Source: Escherichia coli
Lineage (GTDB): Bacteria > Pseudomonadota > Gammaproteobacteria > Enterobacterales > Enterobacteriaceae
Length of the DNA stretch: 64,000 nucleotides
Assembly: GCF_046105845.1 (NCBI RefSeq)
Contig: NZ_CP151004.1
Direction: 5' to 3' (one strand)
Positions 32,301 to 47,300 of the stretch are shown one piece after another. The position numbers were made by a program. Positions within the stretch are counted from its first letter, which is position 1, and every line of letters starts with the position of its first letter.

Positions 32301-35300
32301 TTAAAAATATTTATTTGGTTAATATGTTTTTATGAAAGCGTAATTCAGGTCAATGTCACAATTAACCATTGTCACAATAAGGTTGAACGGATATTCTGAG
32401 CACGGACCACGTAATATTCAATACATTATTTGCTGCCGGGTTTTTCGTGAATCAACGTAATATGTCAATAATTAATTCCACGCCAGTGCGTGTTATTGCC
32501 ATTGTAGGATGTGATGGTTCAGGTAAATCGACCCTCACGGCAAGCCTGGTAAATGAACTGGCAGCAAGAATGCCAACAGAACACATTTATCTCGGGCAAT
32601 CGTCCGGGCGAATTGGCGAATGGATTTCACAGCTCCCTGTTATTGGCGCACCTTTTGGGCGTTATTTGCGAAGTAAAGCGGCACATGTGCACGAAAAGCC
32701 CTCAACACCGCCTGGCAATATTACTGCTCTGGTTATCTATCTGCTTTCCTGCTGGCGGGCGTACAAGTTTCGCAAAATGTTGTGTAAAAGCCAGCAAGGC
32801 TTTCTGCTCATCACCGACCGCTACCCGCAGGTTGAAGTGCCGGGTTTTCGCTTTGATGGCCCGCAATTGGCAAAAACCACGGGCGGTAACGGTTGGATAA
32901 AAATGTTAAGGCAGCGCGAGCTGAAGCTGTACCAATGGATGGCATCTTATTTGCCCGTATTGTTGATTCGTCTTGGCATTGATGAACAAACGGCGTTTGC
33001 GCGTAAACCTGACCACCAACTGGCAGCGTTACAGGAAAAAATCGCCGTTACGCCGCAACTGACATTCAATGGTGCAAAGATCCTTGAACTGGATGGTCGG
33101 CAACCAGCCGATGAAATTCTGCAAGCGTCACTACGCGCAATTCACGCCGCGCTTTCCTGATCACCAAAATGGATAGGGGATGATTTAACGAATGGATGCA
33201 CTACAAACACAAACTGTTATTAGTACAACCGCGCCGCAGCCCAGCTACATTCCGGGGCTAATTGCGGTGGTCGGGTGTGATGGCACCGGTAAATCCACAC
33301 TGACCACCGACCTGGTGAAATCGCTGCAACAACACTGGCAAACCGAGCGGCGCTATCTGGGGCTGCTCTCCGGCGAAGACGGCGACAAAATCAAACGATT
33401 GCCGTTGGTTGGCGTCTGGCTGGAACGGCGACTGGCGGCCAAATCCTCGAAAACCCAAAGCATGAAAACCAAATCTCCTGCGCTATGGGCGGCGGTGATT
33501 ATGTACTGCTTCTCGCTGCGAAGAATGGCGAATCTACGCAAGGTTCAGCGACTGGCGCAAAGTGGCGTTCTGGTGGTCAGCGATCGCTTCCCGCAGGCTG
33601 AAATTTCGGGCTTTTATTATGACGGACCGGGGATTGGCGTCGAACGTGCGACCGGGAAAATCAGCATGTTTCTGGCGCAGCGCGAACGGCGTTTATACCA
33701 ACAAATGGCGCAATACCGTCCTGAATTAATCATTCGTTTGGGGATTGATATTGATACTGCCATCTCCCGCAAGCCTGACCATGACTATGCCGAGCTGCAG
33801 GACAAAATCGGTGTTATGTCGACGATTGGCTATAACGGCACAAAAATTCTTGAGATTGATTCCAGAGCGCCCTACAGCGAAGTGCTGGAACAGGCACAGA
33901 AGGCGGTTTCTCTGGTTGCCATCGTTTCTGACCGCCGAAGTTTAACTTAAGGCTGGCGGGATACTTTTTACTATCAACGATAAGGTCAGGCTGAATTGGC
34001 GGGTTTTAACATCAAACATTGGTTTGCAGATGGCGCGTTTCGCACCATTATTCGCAATAGCGCCTGGTTAGGCTCCAGTAATGTCGTGAGCGCCTTGCTG
34101 GGTCTGTTGGCGCTCTCGTGTGCCGGTAAAGGGATGACGCCCGCCATGTTTGGCGTACTGGTGATTGTGCAATCGTACGCCAAGTCGATCAGCGATTTTA
34201 TTAAGTTTCAGACATGGCAGCTGGTGGTTCAGTACGGAACACCAGCATTAACCAACAATAATCCGCAGCAATTCCGCAATGTCGTCTCATTTTCCTTCTC
34301 GCTGGATATCGTCAGCGGCGCGGTGGCGATTGTCGGCGGCATTGCCTTACTCCCTTTTCTTTCCCATTCATTAGGTCTGGATGACCAAAGCTTTTGGCTG
34401 GCGGCGCTGTATTGCACGCTCATTCCTTCAATGGCTTCCTCCACGCCGACCGGCATTCTGCGTGCGGTAGATCGCTTCGATTTAATTGCTGTACAGCAGG
34501 CGACGAAACCTTTTCTGCGCGCAGCGGGGAGCGTCGTAGCCTGGTATTTTGACTTTGGTTTTGCGGGCTTTGTTATTGCCTGGTACGTGTCGAATCTGGT
34601 TGGCGGCACCATGTACTGGTGGTTTGCCGTGCGCGAATTACGCTGCAGAAATATCCATAACGCCTTCAAATTGAATCTGTTTGAGTCTGCCCGACACATT
34701 AAAGGCGCGTGGAGTTTTGTCTGGTCAACCAACATTGCCCACTCCATCTGGTCGGCACGTAACTCGTGCAGCACAGTGTTGGTGGGGATCGTGTTAGGAC
34801 CCGCTGCCGCCGGGTTATTTAAAATCGCCATGACATTCTTCGACGCCGCCGGAACGCCAGCGGGTTTACTGGGTAAAAGTTTTTACCCAGAGGTGATGCG
34901 TTTAGATCCGCGCACCACCAGACCGTGGTTGTTAGGCGTGAAGTCAGGTTTACTGGCGGGCGGAATCGGTATTCTGGTGGCGCTCGCGGTGTTGATCGTC
35001 GGCAAGCCGCTCATTTCGCTGGTGTTTGGCGTTAAGTATCTCGAAGCGTATGACCTGATTCAGGTGATGCTGGGCGCAATTGTGATTTCGATGCTGGGCT
35101 TCCCACAGGAGTCATTGCTATTGATGGCGGGAAAACAGCGTGCTTTTCTCGTGGCGCAAACCATCGCCTCAATCGGCTACATCGTATTGCTGTTCATGTT
35201 CTGTCATCTGTTTGGCGTGCTGGGGGCTGCATTTGCTTACTTCGCTGGGCAATGTCTGGATGTGGTGCTCTCGCTAATTCCAACCTTAAAGGCATTTTTT

Positions 35301-44300: not shown

Positions 44301-47300
44301 TAAAAGTCAGCGGTGTGCGTACTGCGCGAGTACCGCTGATGGGCGTGCGGGACGAGTATCAGTTTAGCCGCATCGGCCCGGTGATTGCGCTGTTATTGAT
44401 TGAAGCCTTACGCGATCCGTTTGCCCGCCGGAAGATCGATGCGCTGGAAATGTCATGGATCCTCGAAACCAATACAGGCATGAATAACATGCTGGAACGC
44501 ATTGGGGCAGAGCCGTACAAGCGTTACCGATTGTATGAAAAGCAGATTTGATGGCAGTCACCCCTGCTTCATCTCCAGCGGCACCGCCGAGCGAATCAAA
44601 TGGTGGCCTTCCAGCTCGATATCGTGGAGATTCTTTTTCACGGTCCGCACATGATCGCGTGCTGCGCGCTGGGCGACGTGCGGCAGCCGCTGCAACACCG
44701 CGTTGTAGATCCGCGCATGCTGGCGATCGATCTGCTTTTTTTGCTGTGGTCGATGGTAGAGATTATTTACGCTGGCAAACACTGAATTAAACATCAGATC
44801 GGTCAATGATTGCAGCGTAAACACCAACACCTGATTGTGAGAAGCCTGACAAATGGCGAGATGGAAAGCGTGATCCAACTGCGCATGTTCGATCAGCGAA
44901 ATCTCTTTGTTGTTCTCACTGGCGGCGAGCATTTTTTCATAACAGCGGGTTATCACAACAAAATCAGCCTGGGTTCCCAGCGTTGCCGCAAGCCTTGCCG
45001 ATTCCCCCTCCAGCAATGCGCGAACGTCGAGCAGATCGTACAGCGTTCGCGGCTGCGTGCTGAACAGATGAATTAGCGGGCTGGTATCCTGCACCCGATT
45101 AAGCCGTGCGACACGAGAATCGCGACCCTGCGCTGTTTCAATAATCCCGCGCCCGCGCAGCACGGTCAGCCCTTCACGCAGTGCGGAGCGTGAGAAGCCG
45201 AGCTTTTCACACAGTCGACGTTCCGAGGGAAGCGGCTGACCGACCTTCAGTACGCCGTCGATAATTAACCGTTCGATACTCTCTGCAACCACTTCGCAAA
45301 TAGGGCGACGTTCATCTTTCATTCCCGGACCTCGTGCACAGGTAGGACCAATTTTTCTGTTCTTAACTCGCAAAACACGCACATCACGTAAGTGATTATG
45401 TTACATCAATTTAACATTAAGTTAACCAAGGCAAGGTCACAGAGCTGGAAAAAAAATGGTCTGACCGGTAGCTAAAGAGATAGACGAAAACGAAAAGCCC
45501 GCTTAATAACTGTTCACAGAAGCAGCGCGCAAAAATCAGCTGCCACACAACACAACAAAGCGAAGCCTACTCATGAGCATCTTGTACGAAGAGCGTCTTG
45601 ATGGCGCTTTACCCGATGTCGACCGCACATCGGTACTGATGGCACTGCGTGAGCATGTCCCTGGACTTGAGATCCTGCATACCGATGAGGAGATCATTCC
45701 TTACGAGTGTGACGGGTTGAGCGCGTATCGCACGCGTCCATTACTGGTTGTTCTGCCTAAGCAAATGGAACAGGTGACAGCGATTCTGGCTGTTTGTCAC
45801 CGCCTGCGTGTATCGGTGGTGACCCGTGGTGCAGGCACCGGGCTTTCTGGTGGCGCGCTGCCGCTGGAAAAAGGTGTGTTGTTGGTGATGGCGCGCTTTA
45901 AAGAGATCCTCGACATTAACCCCGTTGGTCGCCGCGCGCGCGTGCAGCCGGGCGTGCGTAACCTGGCGATCTCCCAGGCCGTTGCGCCGCATAATCTCTA
46001 TTACGCGCCGGATCCTTCCTCACAAATCGCCTGTTCAATTGGCGGCAATGTGGCGGAAAATGCCGGTGGCGTCCACTGCCTGAAATATGGTCTGACCGTA
46101 CATAACTTGCTGAAAATTGAAGTGCAAACGCTGGACGGCGAGGCGCTGACGCTGGGATCGGACGCGCTGGATTCGCCTGGTTTTGACCTGCTGGCGCTGT
46201 TCACCGGATCGGAAGGTATGCTCGGCGTGACCACCGAAGTAACGGTGAAGCTGTTGCCGAAGCCGCCCGTGGCGCGGGTTCTGTTAGCCAGCTTTGACTC
46301 GGTAGAAAAAGCCGGACTTGCAGTTGGTGACATCATCGCCAATGGCATTATCCCCGGCGGGCTGGAGATGATGGATAACCTGTCGATCCGCGCAGCGGAA
46401 GATTTTATACATGCCGGTTATCCCGTCGACGCCGAAGCGATTTTGTTATGCGAGCTGGACGGCGTGGAGTCTGACGTACAGGAAGACTGCGAGCGGGTTA
46501 ACGACATCTTGTTGAAAGCGGGCGCGACTGACGTCCGTCTGGCACAGGACGAAGCAGAGCGCGTACGTTTCTGGGCCGGTCGCAAAAATGCGTTCCCTGC
46601 GGTAGGACGAATCTCCCCGGATTACTACTGCATGGATGGCACCATCCCGCGCCGCGCACTGCCTGGCGTACTGGAAGGCATTGCCCGTTTATCGCAGCAA
46701 TATGATTTACGCGTTGCCAACGTCTTTCATGCCGGAGACGGCAACATGCACCCGTTAATCCTTTTCGATGCCAACGAACCCGGTGAATTTGCCCGCGCGG
46801 AAGAGCTGGGCGGGAAGATCCTCGAACTCTGCGTTGAAGTTGGCGGCAGCATCAGTGGGGAACATGGCATCGGGCGCGAAAAAATCAATCAAATGTGCGC
46901 CCAGTTCAACAGCGATGAAATCACTACTTTTCATGCGGTCAAGGCGGCGTTTGATCCCGATGGTTTGTTGAACCCAGGAAAAAACATTCCCACGCTACAC
47001 CGCTGTGCTGAATTTGGTGCCATGCATGTGCATCACGGTCATTTACCTTTCCCTGAACTGGAGCGTTTCTGATGCTACGCGAGTGTGATTACAGCCAGGC
47101 GCTGCTGGAGCAGGTGAATCAGGCGATTAGCGATAAAACGCCGCTGGTGATTCAGGGCAGCAATAGCAAAGCCTTTTTAGGTCGTCCTGTCACCGGGCAA
47201 ACGCTGGATGTGCGTTGTCATCGCGGCATTGTTAATTACGACCCGACCGAGCTGGTGATAACCGCGCGTGCCGGAACGCCGCTGGTGGCGATTGAAGCGG

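What the first reader, a model, noticed from the sequence alone, without database searches (positions are those of the whole stretch)
33996..44551. About 10 kb accessory block with no IS5 and intact yghQ/yghO, where K-12 carries a scar
Established knowledge from memory of the K-12 map (not checked): K-12 has glcC - yghO (pseudogene) - IS5 - yghQ (355 aa) - yghR. Seen in sequence: between yghQ and yghO there is no IS element but nine additional genes (35345-43064), yghQ runs to 449 codons and yghO is a full 380-codon ORF. Inference: K-12 lost this system by an IS5-associated deletion, so it is invisible in the reference strain.
Basis: partly seen in the sequence, partly recalled or inferred. 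Interest (0 to 1): 0.7.

Follow-up and report, generated by a model that had tools for sequence, protein, structure and literature searches.

The report
E. coli sphingolipid locus, deleted in K-12
The block is the already published E. coli gene cluster for making and exporting a ceramide-type (sphingo)lipid, present in about three quarters of complete E. coli genomes, and K-12 lacks its core because of a K-12-specific 8.4 kb deletion next to an IS5 element.

Summary
In the window, yghQ (449 aa) and yghO (380 aa) are intact, no IS5 end occurs anywhere, and eight genes (not nine) lie between them. K-12 MG1655 matches the window up to 35064 and again from 43449; a 1,195-bp IS5 replaces about 8,385 bp.

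The block is not a rare accessory island. At least 80% of the pitB-glcD stretch is present in 4,032 of 5,426 complete E. coli genomes. The same locus occurs in other Escherichia species and in many Enterobacterales. The K-12 scar is in 334 genomes, and the 60 I listed are all laboratory K-12 derivatives.

The genes are the published E. coli sphingolipid locus: aasR, cerR/epi, acpR and spt, yghO (ceramide synthase homologue), LptF2/LptG2 and the YghQ flippase. BL21(DE3) orthologues were partly characterised in 2022, and the UTI89 operon was drawn in 2026.

Points that appear new but are minor:
- K-12's YghQ stop codon (Q356 to TAG) exists without IS5 in related strains and created the IS5 target.
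- Strain CY706 shares the K-12 left junction but has a smaller deletion.
- yghT/S/R, a divergent CHAD-fold protein and a YtfJ paralogue travel with the core as a conserved 13-gene module that lacks the Caulobacter head-group genes.

Verdict: already known, with low to moderate interest.

The parts
31581..32273 (-). yghT: P-loop small-molecule kinase-like protein, paralogue of YghR/S
   Evidence: Weak dTMP-kinase hit (24.7 bits against a cutoff of 83-193). Shares the invariant GxDGxGKxT, DRxPQ and ARKPDH motifs with YghR/S. Co-localises with spt in Enterobacterales.
32447..33160 (+). yghS: P-loop kinase-like paralogue
33192..33950 (+). yghR: P-loop kinase-like paralogue; pI 9.6
33996..35345 (+). 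yghQ, full length (449 aa): MOP/Wzx-type flippase, counterpart of Caulobacter CC_1166
   Evidence: Weak MOP flippase hit. HMM hit at E 8e-60 to the gene upstream of aasR-cerR-acpR-spt in a Caulobacteraceae MAG. CC_1166 is described as a potential flippase in PMC11324152.
35060..35063 (+). K-12 left junction site: TCAG here, TTAG in K-12 (codon 356 is CAG here and TAG in K-12), followed in K-12 by the IS5 end GGAAGGTGCGAATAAG
   Evidence: The T allele occurs without IS5 in 9 genomes.
35064..43448 (.). Segment absent from K-12 (about 8,385 bp), replaced there by the 1,195-bp IS5LO
35345..36169 (+). orf274 (UniProt name 'Ybl138'): soluble, basic, all-alpha protein with a divergent CHAD fold
36178..36741 (+). 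ytfJ2: YtfJ-family protein with an N-terminal signal peptide (…APGVQA|HN), so predicted periplasmic
   Evidence: TIGR01626 at 215 bits, above the cutoff of 151. Hydrophobic N-terminus.
36772..37842 (+). lptF2: LptF-family permease paralogue
   Evidence: TIGR04407 at 317 bits, above the cutoff of 230. LptF2/G2 of sphingolipid loci are described in bioRxiv 10.64898/2026.04.12.717747.
37839..38918 (+). lptG2: LptG-family permease paralogue; its start overlaps the lptF2 stop
   Evidence: TIGR04408 at 306.5 bits, above the cutoff of 240.
38953..40125 (-). spt: serine palmitoyltransferase
   Evidence: NF047599 at 598.7 bits, above the cutoff of 500. The PLP-lysine motif GTFSKS is present. The BL21 orthologue ECD_02854 makes 3-oxo-sphinganine (PMC9386255).
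40125..40373 (-). acpR: dedicated acyl carrier protein (DLGLES phosphopantetheine site)
   Evidence: The BL21 orthologue ECD_02853 carries 4'-phosphopantetheine (PMC9386255).
40160..40163 (.). TTAA site where strain CY706 carries a second, simple IS5 insertion with a TTAA target duplication
40405..41319 (-). epi/cerR: NAD(P)-dependent SDR reductase (GATGFIG motif)
   Evidence: SDR/epimerase hits. HMM hit at E 3e-52 to the Caulobacteraceae counterpart. Named epi (ECD_02852) in PMC9386255.
41316..43040 (-). aasR: fatty acyl-AMP ligase / acyl-AcpR synthetase
   Evidence: NF006624 at 869 bits, above the cutoff of 600. ECD_02851 acylates AcpR-Ec (PMC9386255).
43041..43408 (.). AT-rich divergent intergenic region between aasR and yghO (surrounding 1-kb windows have GC about 0.41-0.42); presumed promoters, lost in K-12
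   Evidence: Promoter scan not above background.
43409..44551 (+). yghO: homologue of bacterial ceramide synthase (aca/bCerS, CC_1154)
   Evidence: No Pfam or NCBIfam hit. HMM hit at E 1.6e-104 and 41% identity to the gene next to lptG2 in a Caulobacteraceae MAG. Listed as 'aca: CC_1154, yghO ECD_02850' in PMC9386255.
43449..43452 (+). K-12 right junction site (TTAA), 40 nt into yghO
36421..36424 (+). TTAA inside ytfJ2 where the smaller CY706 deletion ends

Best explanation
Window 31581-44551 is the chromosomal sphingolipid (dihydroceramide-type) biosynthesis and export locus of Escherichia and other Enterobacterales.

Pathway, with the basis for each step:
- Shown for the BL21(DE3) orthologues in the literature: AasR loads a fatty acid onto the dedicated carrier AcpR, and Spt condenses acyl-AcpR with serine to give 3-oxo-sphinganine.
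- Inferred by homology to the Caulobacter genes: YghO (bCerS/aca homologue) N-acylates the product and the SDR Epi/CerR reduces it, giving dihydroceramide.
- Inferred by analogy: YghQ (a Wzx-like flippase, counterpart of CC_1166) moves the lipid across the inner membrane, and LptF2/LptG2, probably powered by the housekeeping LptB, extract it towards the outer membrane.
- Speculative: the three basic P-loop kinases YghR/S/T, the CHAD-fold protein orf274 and the periplasmic YtfJ paralogue belong to the same conserved module. They probably build or handle a phosphate-containing head group that differs from Caulobacter's ceramide phosphoglycerate.

The locus is ancestral. K-12 lost 8.4 kb of it in its own lineage:
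1. A CAG-to-TAG nonsense mutation at yghQ codon 356 created a TTAG site.
2. IS5 inserted there.
3. The DNA from the IS5 to a TTAA site in yghO was deleted, either by IS5-mediated adjacent deletion or by recombination with a second IS5.

This left yghT, yghS, yghR, yghQ' and an N-terminally altered yghO as orphan remnants.
For: Gene identities:
- Curated NCBIfam cutoffs are passed by Spt, the FAAL, LptF, LptG and YtfJ.
- Literature on the identical BL21(DE3) genes ECD_02850-02854 (PMC9386255).
- LptF2/G2 in sphingolipid loci, with the UTI89 operon drawn (bioRxiv 10.64898/2026.04.12.717747).
- Synteny and HMM hits to a Caulobacteraceae locus, arranged as yghQ-like, aasR, cerR, acpR, spt and, about 6 kb further on, lptG2-like and yghO-like.

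Conserved module: all 13 genes co-localise in more than 20 Enterobacterales species despite at least three different sub-operon arrangements.

Ancestral state: 4,032 of 5,426 genomes are intact. The pitB/glcC context is the same in other Escherichia species, and pitB adjacency holds in Citrobacter, Pseudocitrobacter and Hafnia. GC content is 0.47-0.56 across the gene block, with no mobile-element signatures.

K-12 deletion: junctions. The flanks TTAG and TTAA are not identical. The T allele occurs without IS5. CY706 is an intermediate. The scar is in 334 genomes, and the 60 listed are all K-12 laboratory derivatives.

Accessory genes: CHAD fold. Kinase fold. All four proteins are basic, pI 9.4-9.9.
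Against: - I found no report that any E. coli makes a sphingolipid from its native locus. In PMC9386255, empty-vector BL21(DE3) formed no 3-oxo-sphinganine, so the locus may be silent in laboratory media.
- The roles of YghQ, LptF2/G2, YghR/S/T, orf274 and YtfJ2 rest on homology, fold and gene neighbourhood only.
- Distant orf274 homologues outside Enterobacterales were not found next to spt genes. Pseudomonas spt loci lack yghQ, orf274 and ytfJ2 within 10 kb.
- The order 'nonsense, then IS5, then deletion' is inferred from extant genotypes. No genome with the nonsense codon alone in an otherwise intact locus was seen.
- Genome counts come from a redundant, biased set of complete genomes.
Confidence: 0.85

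Rival explanations
1. The block is a horizontally acquired accessory island inserted between yghQ and yghO, and K-12 shows the ancestral empty site.
For: The block is absent from K-12 and from roughly a quarter of complete genomes. The Spt scores best against the NCBIfam model named for Betaproteobacteria.
Against: - K-12's yghQ and yghO end inside genes that are full length elsewhere.
- IS5 sits exactly at the joint and has non-matching flanks.
- The locus lies in the same context in other Escherichia species and next to pitB in Citrobacter, Pseudocitrobacter and Hafnia.
- There is no integrase, tRNA, flanking repeat or GC anomaly.
- The absences are several different, independent deletions: IS1, IS5, SpLE3/OI-122 and yghT-gspL.
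Confidence: 0.02
2. The K-12 deletion arose by homologous recombination between two directly oriented IS5 copies, one in yghQ and one at the start of yghO, rather than by IS5-mediated adjacent deletion (intramolecular transposition).
For: - CY706 shows that this lineage can carry two same-orientation IS5 copies inside the locus.
- K-12's right flank, TTAA, is a canonical IS5 target.
- Recombination would leave exactly one IS5 with the left flank of one copy and the right flank of the other (TTAG...TTAA).
Against: No genome with an IS5 at the yghO TTAA site plus retained upstream DNA was seen. Adjacent deletion predicts the same final sequence, so the two cannot be told apart from sequence alone. 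This rival concerns only the last step and is compatible with the best explanation.
Confidence: 0.4
3. The locus makes and exports something other than a sphingolipid. It could be an LPS- or polysaccharide-related product, as the PGAP names suggest ('lipopolysaccharide biosynthesis protein', 'LptF/LptG', 'dTMP kinase'), or another alpha-oxoamine-derived amino lipid or signal.
For: - PGAP names.
- Spt belongs to the broad BioF/Kbl/CqsA alpha-oxoamine synthase family, with weaker hits to those models.
- The final product in E. coli has never been identified.
Against: - Spt passes only the SPT equivalog cutoff (598.7 against 500) and fails the BioF, Kbl and CqsA cutoffs.
- BL21 Spt, AcpR and AasR produce 3-oxo-sphinganine (PMC9386255).
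- YghO and Epi are homologues of the genes required for Caulobacter ceramide.
- YghR/S/T score 24-31 bits against the dTMP kinase cutoff of 83.
Confidence: 0.08

Closest known systems
E. coli BL21(DE3) ECD_02850-ECD_02854 (yghO/aca, aasR, epi, acpR, spt); Padilla-Gomez et al. 2022, PMC9386255
   Same: The same locus in another strain, with the same five genes, order and overlaps. AcpR-Ec carries 4'-phosphopantetheine, AasR-Ec acylates it, and Spt-Ec prefers acyl-AcpR and forms 3-oxo-sphinganine.
   Different: That work covers only the five biosynthetic genes. It does not discuss yghQRST, orf274, ytfJ2 or lptF2G2, nor how K-12 lost the locus.
Caulobacter crescentus sphingolipid locus CC_1152-CC_1168 (CCNA_01210-01226); PMC11324152, PMC10331486 and bioRxiv 10.64898/2026.04.12.717747
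   Same: It contains spt, acpR, cerR, aasR, bCerS, a Wzx-like flippase (CC_1166) and LptF2/LptG2 paralogues within one locus. The window proteins hit a Caulobacteraceae locus with this arrangement. The 2026 preprint draws the E. coli UTI89 operon beside it.
   Different: The E. coli locus has no counterpart of the head-group genes (CpgA/B/C = CC_1159-1161, CC_1152, CC_1153, CC_1158), of LptC2, of CC_1167 (glycerophosphotransferase-like) or of CC_1157 (HIT). Instead it carries three P-loop kinases, a CHAD-fold protein and a YtfJ paralogue. The final lipid is therefore probably different.
LptB2FGC lipopolysaccharide extractor
   Same: LptF2 and LptG2 pass the LptF and LptG equivalog cutoffs. They are adjacent and translationally coupled.
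   Different: They are encoded in a sphingolipid locus with no lptB or lptC next to them. In Caulobacter the paralogues borrow the housekeeping LptB. PGAP names them simply lptF/lptG, which is misleading.
CHAD domains (PF05235), polyphosphate-binding helical modules (e.g. Ricinus CHAD 6qv5, PptA 6rn5, E. coli YgiF)
   Different: The Pfam model gives no direct hit and hhalign to YgiF is negative. orf274 is a stand-alone protein embedded in a lipid locus. Its ligand is unknown.
Other IS5 lesions of K-12 surface structures, e.g. wbbL::IS5 (rfb-50)
   Same: The same element is involved, and this is one of the 11 IS5 copies listed for BW25113. It again silences an envelope-lipid or glycan pathway that wild E. 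coli retain.
   Different: Here IS5 is associated with an 8.4 kb deletion rather than a simple insertion, so the defect cannot revert.

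Membership tests
Proteobacterial ('rhodobacterial') ceramide synthesis locus (Spt-AcpR-AasR-CerR-bCerS) | A serine palmitoyltransferase of the alpha-oxoamine synthase family | tested here: met
   NF047599 at 598.7 bits against a cutoff of 500. The BioF, Kbl and CqsA models score below their cutoffs. The GTFSKS PLP-lysine motif is present.
Proteobacterial ('rhodobacterial') ceramide synthesis locus (Spt-AcpR-AasR-CerR-bCerS) | A dedicated ACP gene immediately upstream of spt, plus a FAAL-type acyl-ACP synthetase nearby | tested here: met
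   The acpR stop overlaps the spt start at 40125. The DLGLES serine motif is present. The FAAL model NF006624 scores 869 bits against a cutoff of 600.
Proteobacterial ('rhodobacterial') ceramide synthesis locus (Spt-AcpR-AasR-CerR-bCerS) | Homologues of CerR (SDR reductase) and bCerS (N-acyltransferase) | tested here: met
   HMMs built from the enterobacterial proteins hit the Caulobacteraceae MAG genes at E 3e-52 (epi) and E 1.6e-104 (yghO, 41% identity). PMC9386255 lists ECD_02852 and yghO/ECD_02850 as the orthologues.
Proteobacterial ('rhodobacterial') ceramide synthesis locus (Spt-AcpR-AasR-CerR-bCerS) | The organism actually produces a sphingolipid from these genes | not testable with these tools
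   Only heterologous or over-expression data exist for the BL21 enzymes. Empty-vector BL21 formed no 3-oxo-sphinganine.
Sphingolipid-locus LptF2/LptG2 transporter | Paired LptF- and LptG-family permeases encoded inside a sphingolipid locus | tested here: met
   TIGR04407 at 317 bits and TIGR04408 at 306.5 bits. The genes lie 35 bp from spt. They are conserved with spt in Enterobacterales and Pseudomonas.
Sphingolipid-locus LptF2/LptG2 transporter | Forms a complex with LptB and is needed for sphingolipid export | not testable with these tools
   Shown only for Caulobacter.
CHAD domain (PF05235) | Match to the Pfam CHAD model | tested here: not met
   orf274 and its 17 enterobacterial orthologues give no hit. 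Among 19 distant homologues, 8 hit at E<=0.1 and one at 2.5e-5, so the sequence link is only transitive.
CHAD domain (PF05235) | All-alpha helical-bundle CHAD fold with conserved histidines and a basic surface | tested here: met
CHAD domain (PF05235) | Binds inorganic polyphosphate | not testable with these tools
   Needs a binding assay.
dTMP kinase (PGAP name for YghS/YghT) | Score above the curated dTMP-kinase cutoff | tested here: not met
Bacterial ceramide kinase CpgB (DAGK/LCB5 type) | DAG-kinase catalytic domain with a GGDG motif | tested here: not met
   CpgB has an LCB5/DAGK domain. YghR/S/T are Walker-A P-loop kinases. No DAGK-type protein is encoded in the locus.
IS5-associated deletion | A complete IS5 at the joint whose two 4-bp flanks differ, i.e. 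no target-site duplication | tested here: met
   The IS5 is 1,195 bp with both terminal repeats, flanked by TTAG on the left and TTAA on the right. By contrast, the second IS5 in CY706 has a TTAA/TTAA duplication.
IS5-associated deletion | Both flanks are YTAR target sites in the undeleted sequence | tested here: met
   The right site is TTAA in the window (43449-43452). The left site is TCAG in the window but TTAG, with no IS5, in 9 genomes that share K-12's flanking protein alleles.
IS5-associated deletion | Mechanism: intramolecular transposition versus recombination between two copies | not testable with these tools
   Both mechanisms give the same product.

The most novel reading that the evidence does not exclude
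Enterobacterales carry a distinct variant of the bacterial sphingolipid system. The Caulobacter head-group enzymes are replaced by three membrane-proximal P-loop kinases (YghR/S/T) and a stand-alone CHAD-fold phosphate- or polyphosphate-binding protein (orf274/Ybl138), with a periplasmic YtfJ paralogue as a new transport accessory. Together these would make and deliver a previously undescribed anionic, phosphorylated ceramide to the E. coli outer membrane. On this reading the long-unexplained K-12 y-genes yghQ, yghR, yghS, yghT and yghO are relics of that pathway.
Probability: 0.3. Interest if true: 0.6.

Novelty: already known. Interest (0 to 1): 0.3.

Why it matters
Most E. coli physiology is read through K-12, which lacks this pathway. 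As a result, a whole class of envelope lipid that about three quarters of sequenced E. coli can encode is rarely considered, including B strains, UPEC and many commensals.

The analysis has three practical consequences:
- It explains five orphan K-12 genes (yghO, yghQ, yghR, yghS, yghT) as remnants of the pathway.
- It cautions against treating K-12 yghQ as a functional gene, as knockout and resistance screens do.
- It flags misleading automatic names (lptF, lptG, dTMP kinase, 'LPS biosynthesis protein').

The open questions remain experimental: whether E. coli makes the lipid, under what conditions, and with what head group. The conserved 13-gene module gives a concrete gene list to test.

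Tried and rejected
- The promoter and terminator consensus scan of 31400-44800 gave counts at shuffle background (17 against 16.0; 18 against 17.9). The only convincing site is the pitB terminator at 31542-31570, so there is no operon evidence beyond overlapping stops and starts.
- PDB sequence searches with YghR, YghO, orf274 and YtfJ2 found nothing meaningful.
- I considered YghR/S/T as homologues of the Caulobacter ceramide kinase CpgB. I rejected this because CpgB is a DAGK/LCB5-type enzyme.
- hhalign of orf274 alignments against the E. coli YgiF CHAD protein was negative.
- I tested whether distant orf274 homologues sit in sphingolipid loci. Three look-ups showed unrelated or uninformative neighbourhoods, which is inconclusive.
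- I first took strain LR-64-1 ('internal stop' in yghQ) for the nonsense-only intermediate. It instead carries an independent W239* and the C allele at codon 356.
- Literature searches found no open-access paper that describes the K-12 deletion itself or native sphingolipid production by E. coli. Subscription papers, such as comparisons of the B and K-12 genomes, could not be searched.

Full report
**Observation**

The ORF map of window 30000-48000 shows, on the + strand:
- yghS (32447-33160) and yghR (33192-33950)
- a 449-codon yghQ (33996-35345)
- a 274-codon ORF (35345-36169) and a 187-codon ORF (36178-36741)
- two permease genes (36772-37842 and 37839-38918)

On the - strand it shows four tightly packed genes: 38953-40125, 40125-40373, 40405-41319 and 41316-43040. 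A 380-codon yghO (43409-44551, + strand) follows, then glcC.

PGAP annotates identical boundaries in the closest complete genome, which is 98.7% identical over 15.6 kb. No IS5 terminal repeat occurs anywhere in the window, and there are no repeats of 20 bp or more in 31000-46000.

**The K-12 comparison**

MG1655 has glcC - yghO - IS5LO (1,195 bp) - yghQ (355 aa) - yghR. Alignments and megablast place the end of homology at window 35063/35064 and its resumption at 43449. K-12 therefore lacks about 8,385 bp:
- the last 94 codons of yghQ
- eight whole genes
- the aasR-yghO intergenic region
- the first 13-14 codons of yghO, which the K-12 annotation replaces with IS5-derived codons

The IS5 is flanked by TTAG on the yghQ side and TTAA on the yghO side. 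These are not a target-site duplication, which is the signature of a deletion rather than a simple insertion.

**How K-12 got there**

The window reads ATT-CAG at yghQ codons 355-356, while K-12 reads ATT-TAG followed directly by IS5. IS5 targets YTAR sites, and TCAG is not one. An 80-mer carrying the T allele, but continuing into native yghQ, matched nine complete genomes perfectly. In strain L9 the TAG is followed by 38 bp of normal yghQ with no IS5. L9's PitB, YghT, YghS and YghR are the same protein accessions as in K-12-type genomes. The nonsense mutation therefore predates IS5 and created its target, so K-12's 355-aa YghQ is a nonsense product and not an IS truncation.

Strain CY706 also carries the K-12 flanking alleles and has the identical yghQ|IS5 left junction. 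Its right junction, however, is a TTAA inside the ytfJ-like gene (window 36421), so only 1.36 kb is missing. It also has a second IS5, with a proper TTAA duplication, at window 40160.

The likely sequence is nonsense mutation, then IS5 insertion, then one or more rightward deletions. The deletions could have arisen by intramolecular transposition or by recombination with another IS5 copy. The sequence cannot distinguish these two routes.

**Distribution**

- 4,032 of 5,426 complete genomes hold at least 80% of window 31500-47100.
- 4,167 have the yghQ junction site contiguous.
- The K-12 scar is in 334 genomes, and the 60 best matches are all laboratory K-12 derivatives.

Other lineages lost the locus in different ways:
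- a yghT-gspL deletion
- yghQ W239* plus an IS1 deletion reaching pheV
- a pitB-IS1-yghO deletion
- a yghQ-gspL deletion
- in O157:H7 Sakai, SpLE3/OI-122 now lies between pheV and a truncated pitB, and everything from the T2SS-beta genes to yghT is missing

This last case probably accounts for many of the 605 genomes with no match at all.

The same locus in the same context is present in other Escherichia species. With pitB adjacency it is also present in Citrobacter, Pseudocitrobacter and Hafnia. GC content across the gene block is unremarkable. The locus is ancestral, and 'accessory' is the wrong word for it.

**What the genes are**

Curated NCBIfam cutoffs are passed by:

| Protein | Model score | Cutoff |
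|---|---|---|
| Serine palmitoyltransferase | 598.7 | 500 |
| Fatty acyl-AMP ligase | 869 | 600 |
| LptF | 317 | 230 |
| LptG | 306.5 | 240 |
| YtfJ family | 215 | 151 |

The small - strand gene is an ACP with a DLGLES serine site. The 304-aa gene is an SDR reductase.

The literature identifies this set. Padilla-Gomez et al. 2022 (PMC9386255) studied the BL21(DE3) orthologues ECD_02850 (yghO, 'aca' N-acyltransferase), ECD_02851 (aasR), ECD_02852 (epi), ECD_02853 (acpR) and ECD_02854 (spt). They showed that AcpR-Ec is phosphopantetheinylated, that AasR-Ec acylates it, and that Spt-Ec forms 3-oxo-sphinganine, preferring acyl-AcpR as substrate.

A 2026 preprint (10.64898/2026.04.12.717747) shows that the Caulobacter LptF2/LptG2 paralogues are required when sphingolipids are made and that they bind LptB. 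Its Figure 2B draws the E. coli UTI89 sphingolipid operon.

HMMs from the enterobacterial proteins hit a Caulobacteraceae locus arranged as yghQ-like, aasR, cerR, acpR and spt, with lptG2-like and yghO-like genes about 6 kb further on. This matches the published CC_1166-CC_1162 and CC_1155/CC_1154 layout. The core of the finding is therefore already known.

**What appears to be new**

A scan of one genome per species, followed by tblastn with 15 window proteins, gave the main new result. All thirteen genes (yghT, S, R, Q, orf274, ytfJ2, lptF2, lptG2, spt, acpR, epi, aasR, yghO) stay together in Citrobacter, Pseudocitrobacter, Hafnia, Pluralibacter, Sodalis, Serratia, Mangrovibacter, Rosenbergiella and Pantoea. 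They do so even though the sub-operons are rearranged in at least three ways. Conservation of this kind argues that the uncharacterised members belong to the system.

The accessory proteins:
- Its AFDB neighbours (TM 0.9-0.96) are 'CHAD domain-containing proteins' of Sphingomonas, Acetobacter, Gluconobacter, Zymomonas and Pseudomonas.
- Eight of 19 distant sequence homologues give weak Pfam CHAD hits, one at 2.5e-5.
- All four proteins are basic, with pI 9.4-9.9.

The locus has none of the Caulobacter head-group genes. My inference, which is speculative, is that the enterobacterial lipid carries a different head group, probably phosphorylated.

**Caveats**

- I found no evidence that E. coli expresses the locus. 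Empty-vector BL21 made no 3-oxo-sphinganine.
- Distant orf274 homologues were not found in spt neighbourhoods.
- Pseudomonas loci lack yghQ, orf274 and ytfJ2 within 10 kb.
- Promoter and terminator scans were at background.
- Genome counts come from a redundant collection.

**Verdict**

The object is the known E. coli sphingolipid locus, and its absence from K-12 is a private, stepwise decay event. The residual interest lies in the uncharacterised half of the 13-gene module and in the still-unknown lipid.

Noticed in passing
window 31581-33950 and 36772-38918: Automatic annotation of this locus in RefSeq genomes is misleading. YghS and YghT are named 'dTMP kinase' although they score 24-31 bits against a cutoff of 83. 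The sphingolipid-locus paralogues are named plainly lptF/lptG, and YghQ is named 'lipopolysaccharide biosynthesis protein'.
   Followed up: partly
window ~56000-64000 (by correspondence with L068 10026-19601): Downstream of the glc operon, the closest complete genome has sslE, pppA, gspS2, gspC, gspD and gspE, i.e. an intact T2SS-beta cluster. Several of the deletions that remove the sphingolipid locus end in gspL or at pheV. The whole pitB-pheV interval therefore looks like a hotspot for loss. I did not check whether the window's own copy is intact.
   Followed up: partly
L009 (O157:H7 Sakai) 22168-46853: In O157:H7 Sakai the SpLE3/OI-122 island lies between pheV and a truncated pitB. The entire T2SS-beta, glc operon, yghO, sphingolipid-locus and yghQRST interval is absent.
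   Followed up: partly
L004 (strain CY706) 15007-16201; window equivalent 40160-40163: A second IS5 with a clean TTAA duplication sits in the 3' end of acpR. The locus therefore carries two same-orientation IS5 copies, a ready substrate for further deletion.
   Followed up: yes
window 40405-41529 (- strand): The mechanical ORF for the reductase runs 70 codons upstream of the PGAP start (GTG start, 374 aa) and overlaps the 3' end of aasR. The 304-aa version, starting MNQTVAVTGATGFIG, fits the orthologues and the Rossmann motif.
   Followed up: partly
K-12 yghQ (L003 7342-8409), outside the window: Published K-12 screens treat yghQ as a functional flippase gene. They report clustered 'SNVs' in yghQ and yhiS, both of which abut IS5 copies. 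These may be read-mapping artefacts at IS junctions, and yghQ in K-12 is a truncated relic.
   Followed up: no
window 31500-47100: The best match among 5,426 complete E. coli genomes is only 98.7% identical, and most are 97-98%. Other Escherichia species are 90-94% identical. The window therefore comes from an E. coli lineage that is poorly represented among complete genomes.
   Followed up: no
L069 4268-6362: A distant orf274/CHAD-like homologue (P0140) lies next to a PAP2 lipid-phosphate phosphatase gene in an unrelated genome. This is possibly a hint of a phosphate-lipid connection, or it may be coincidence.
   Followed up: no
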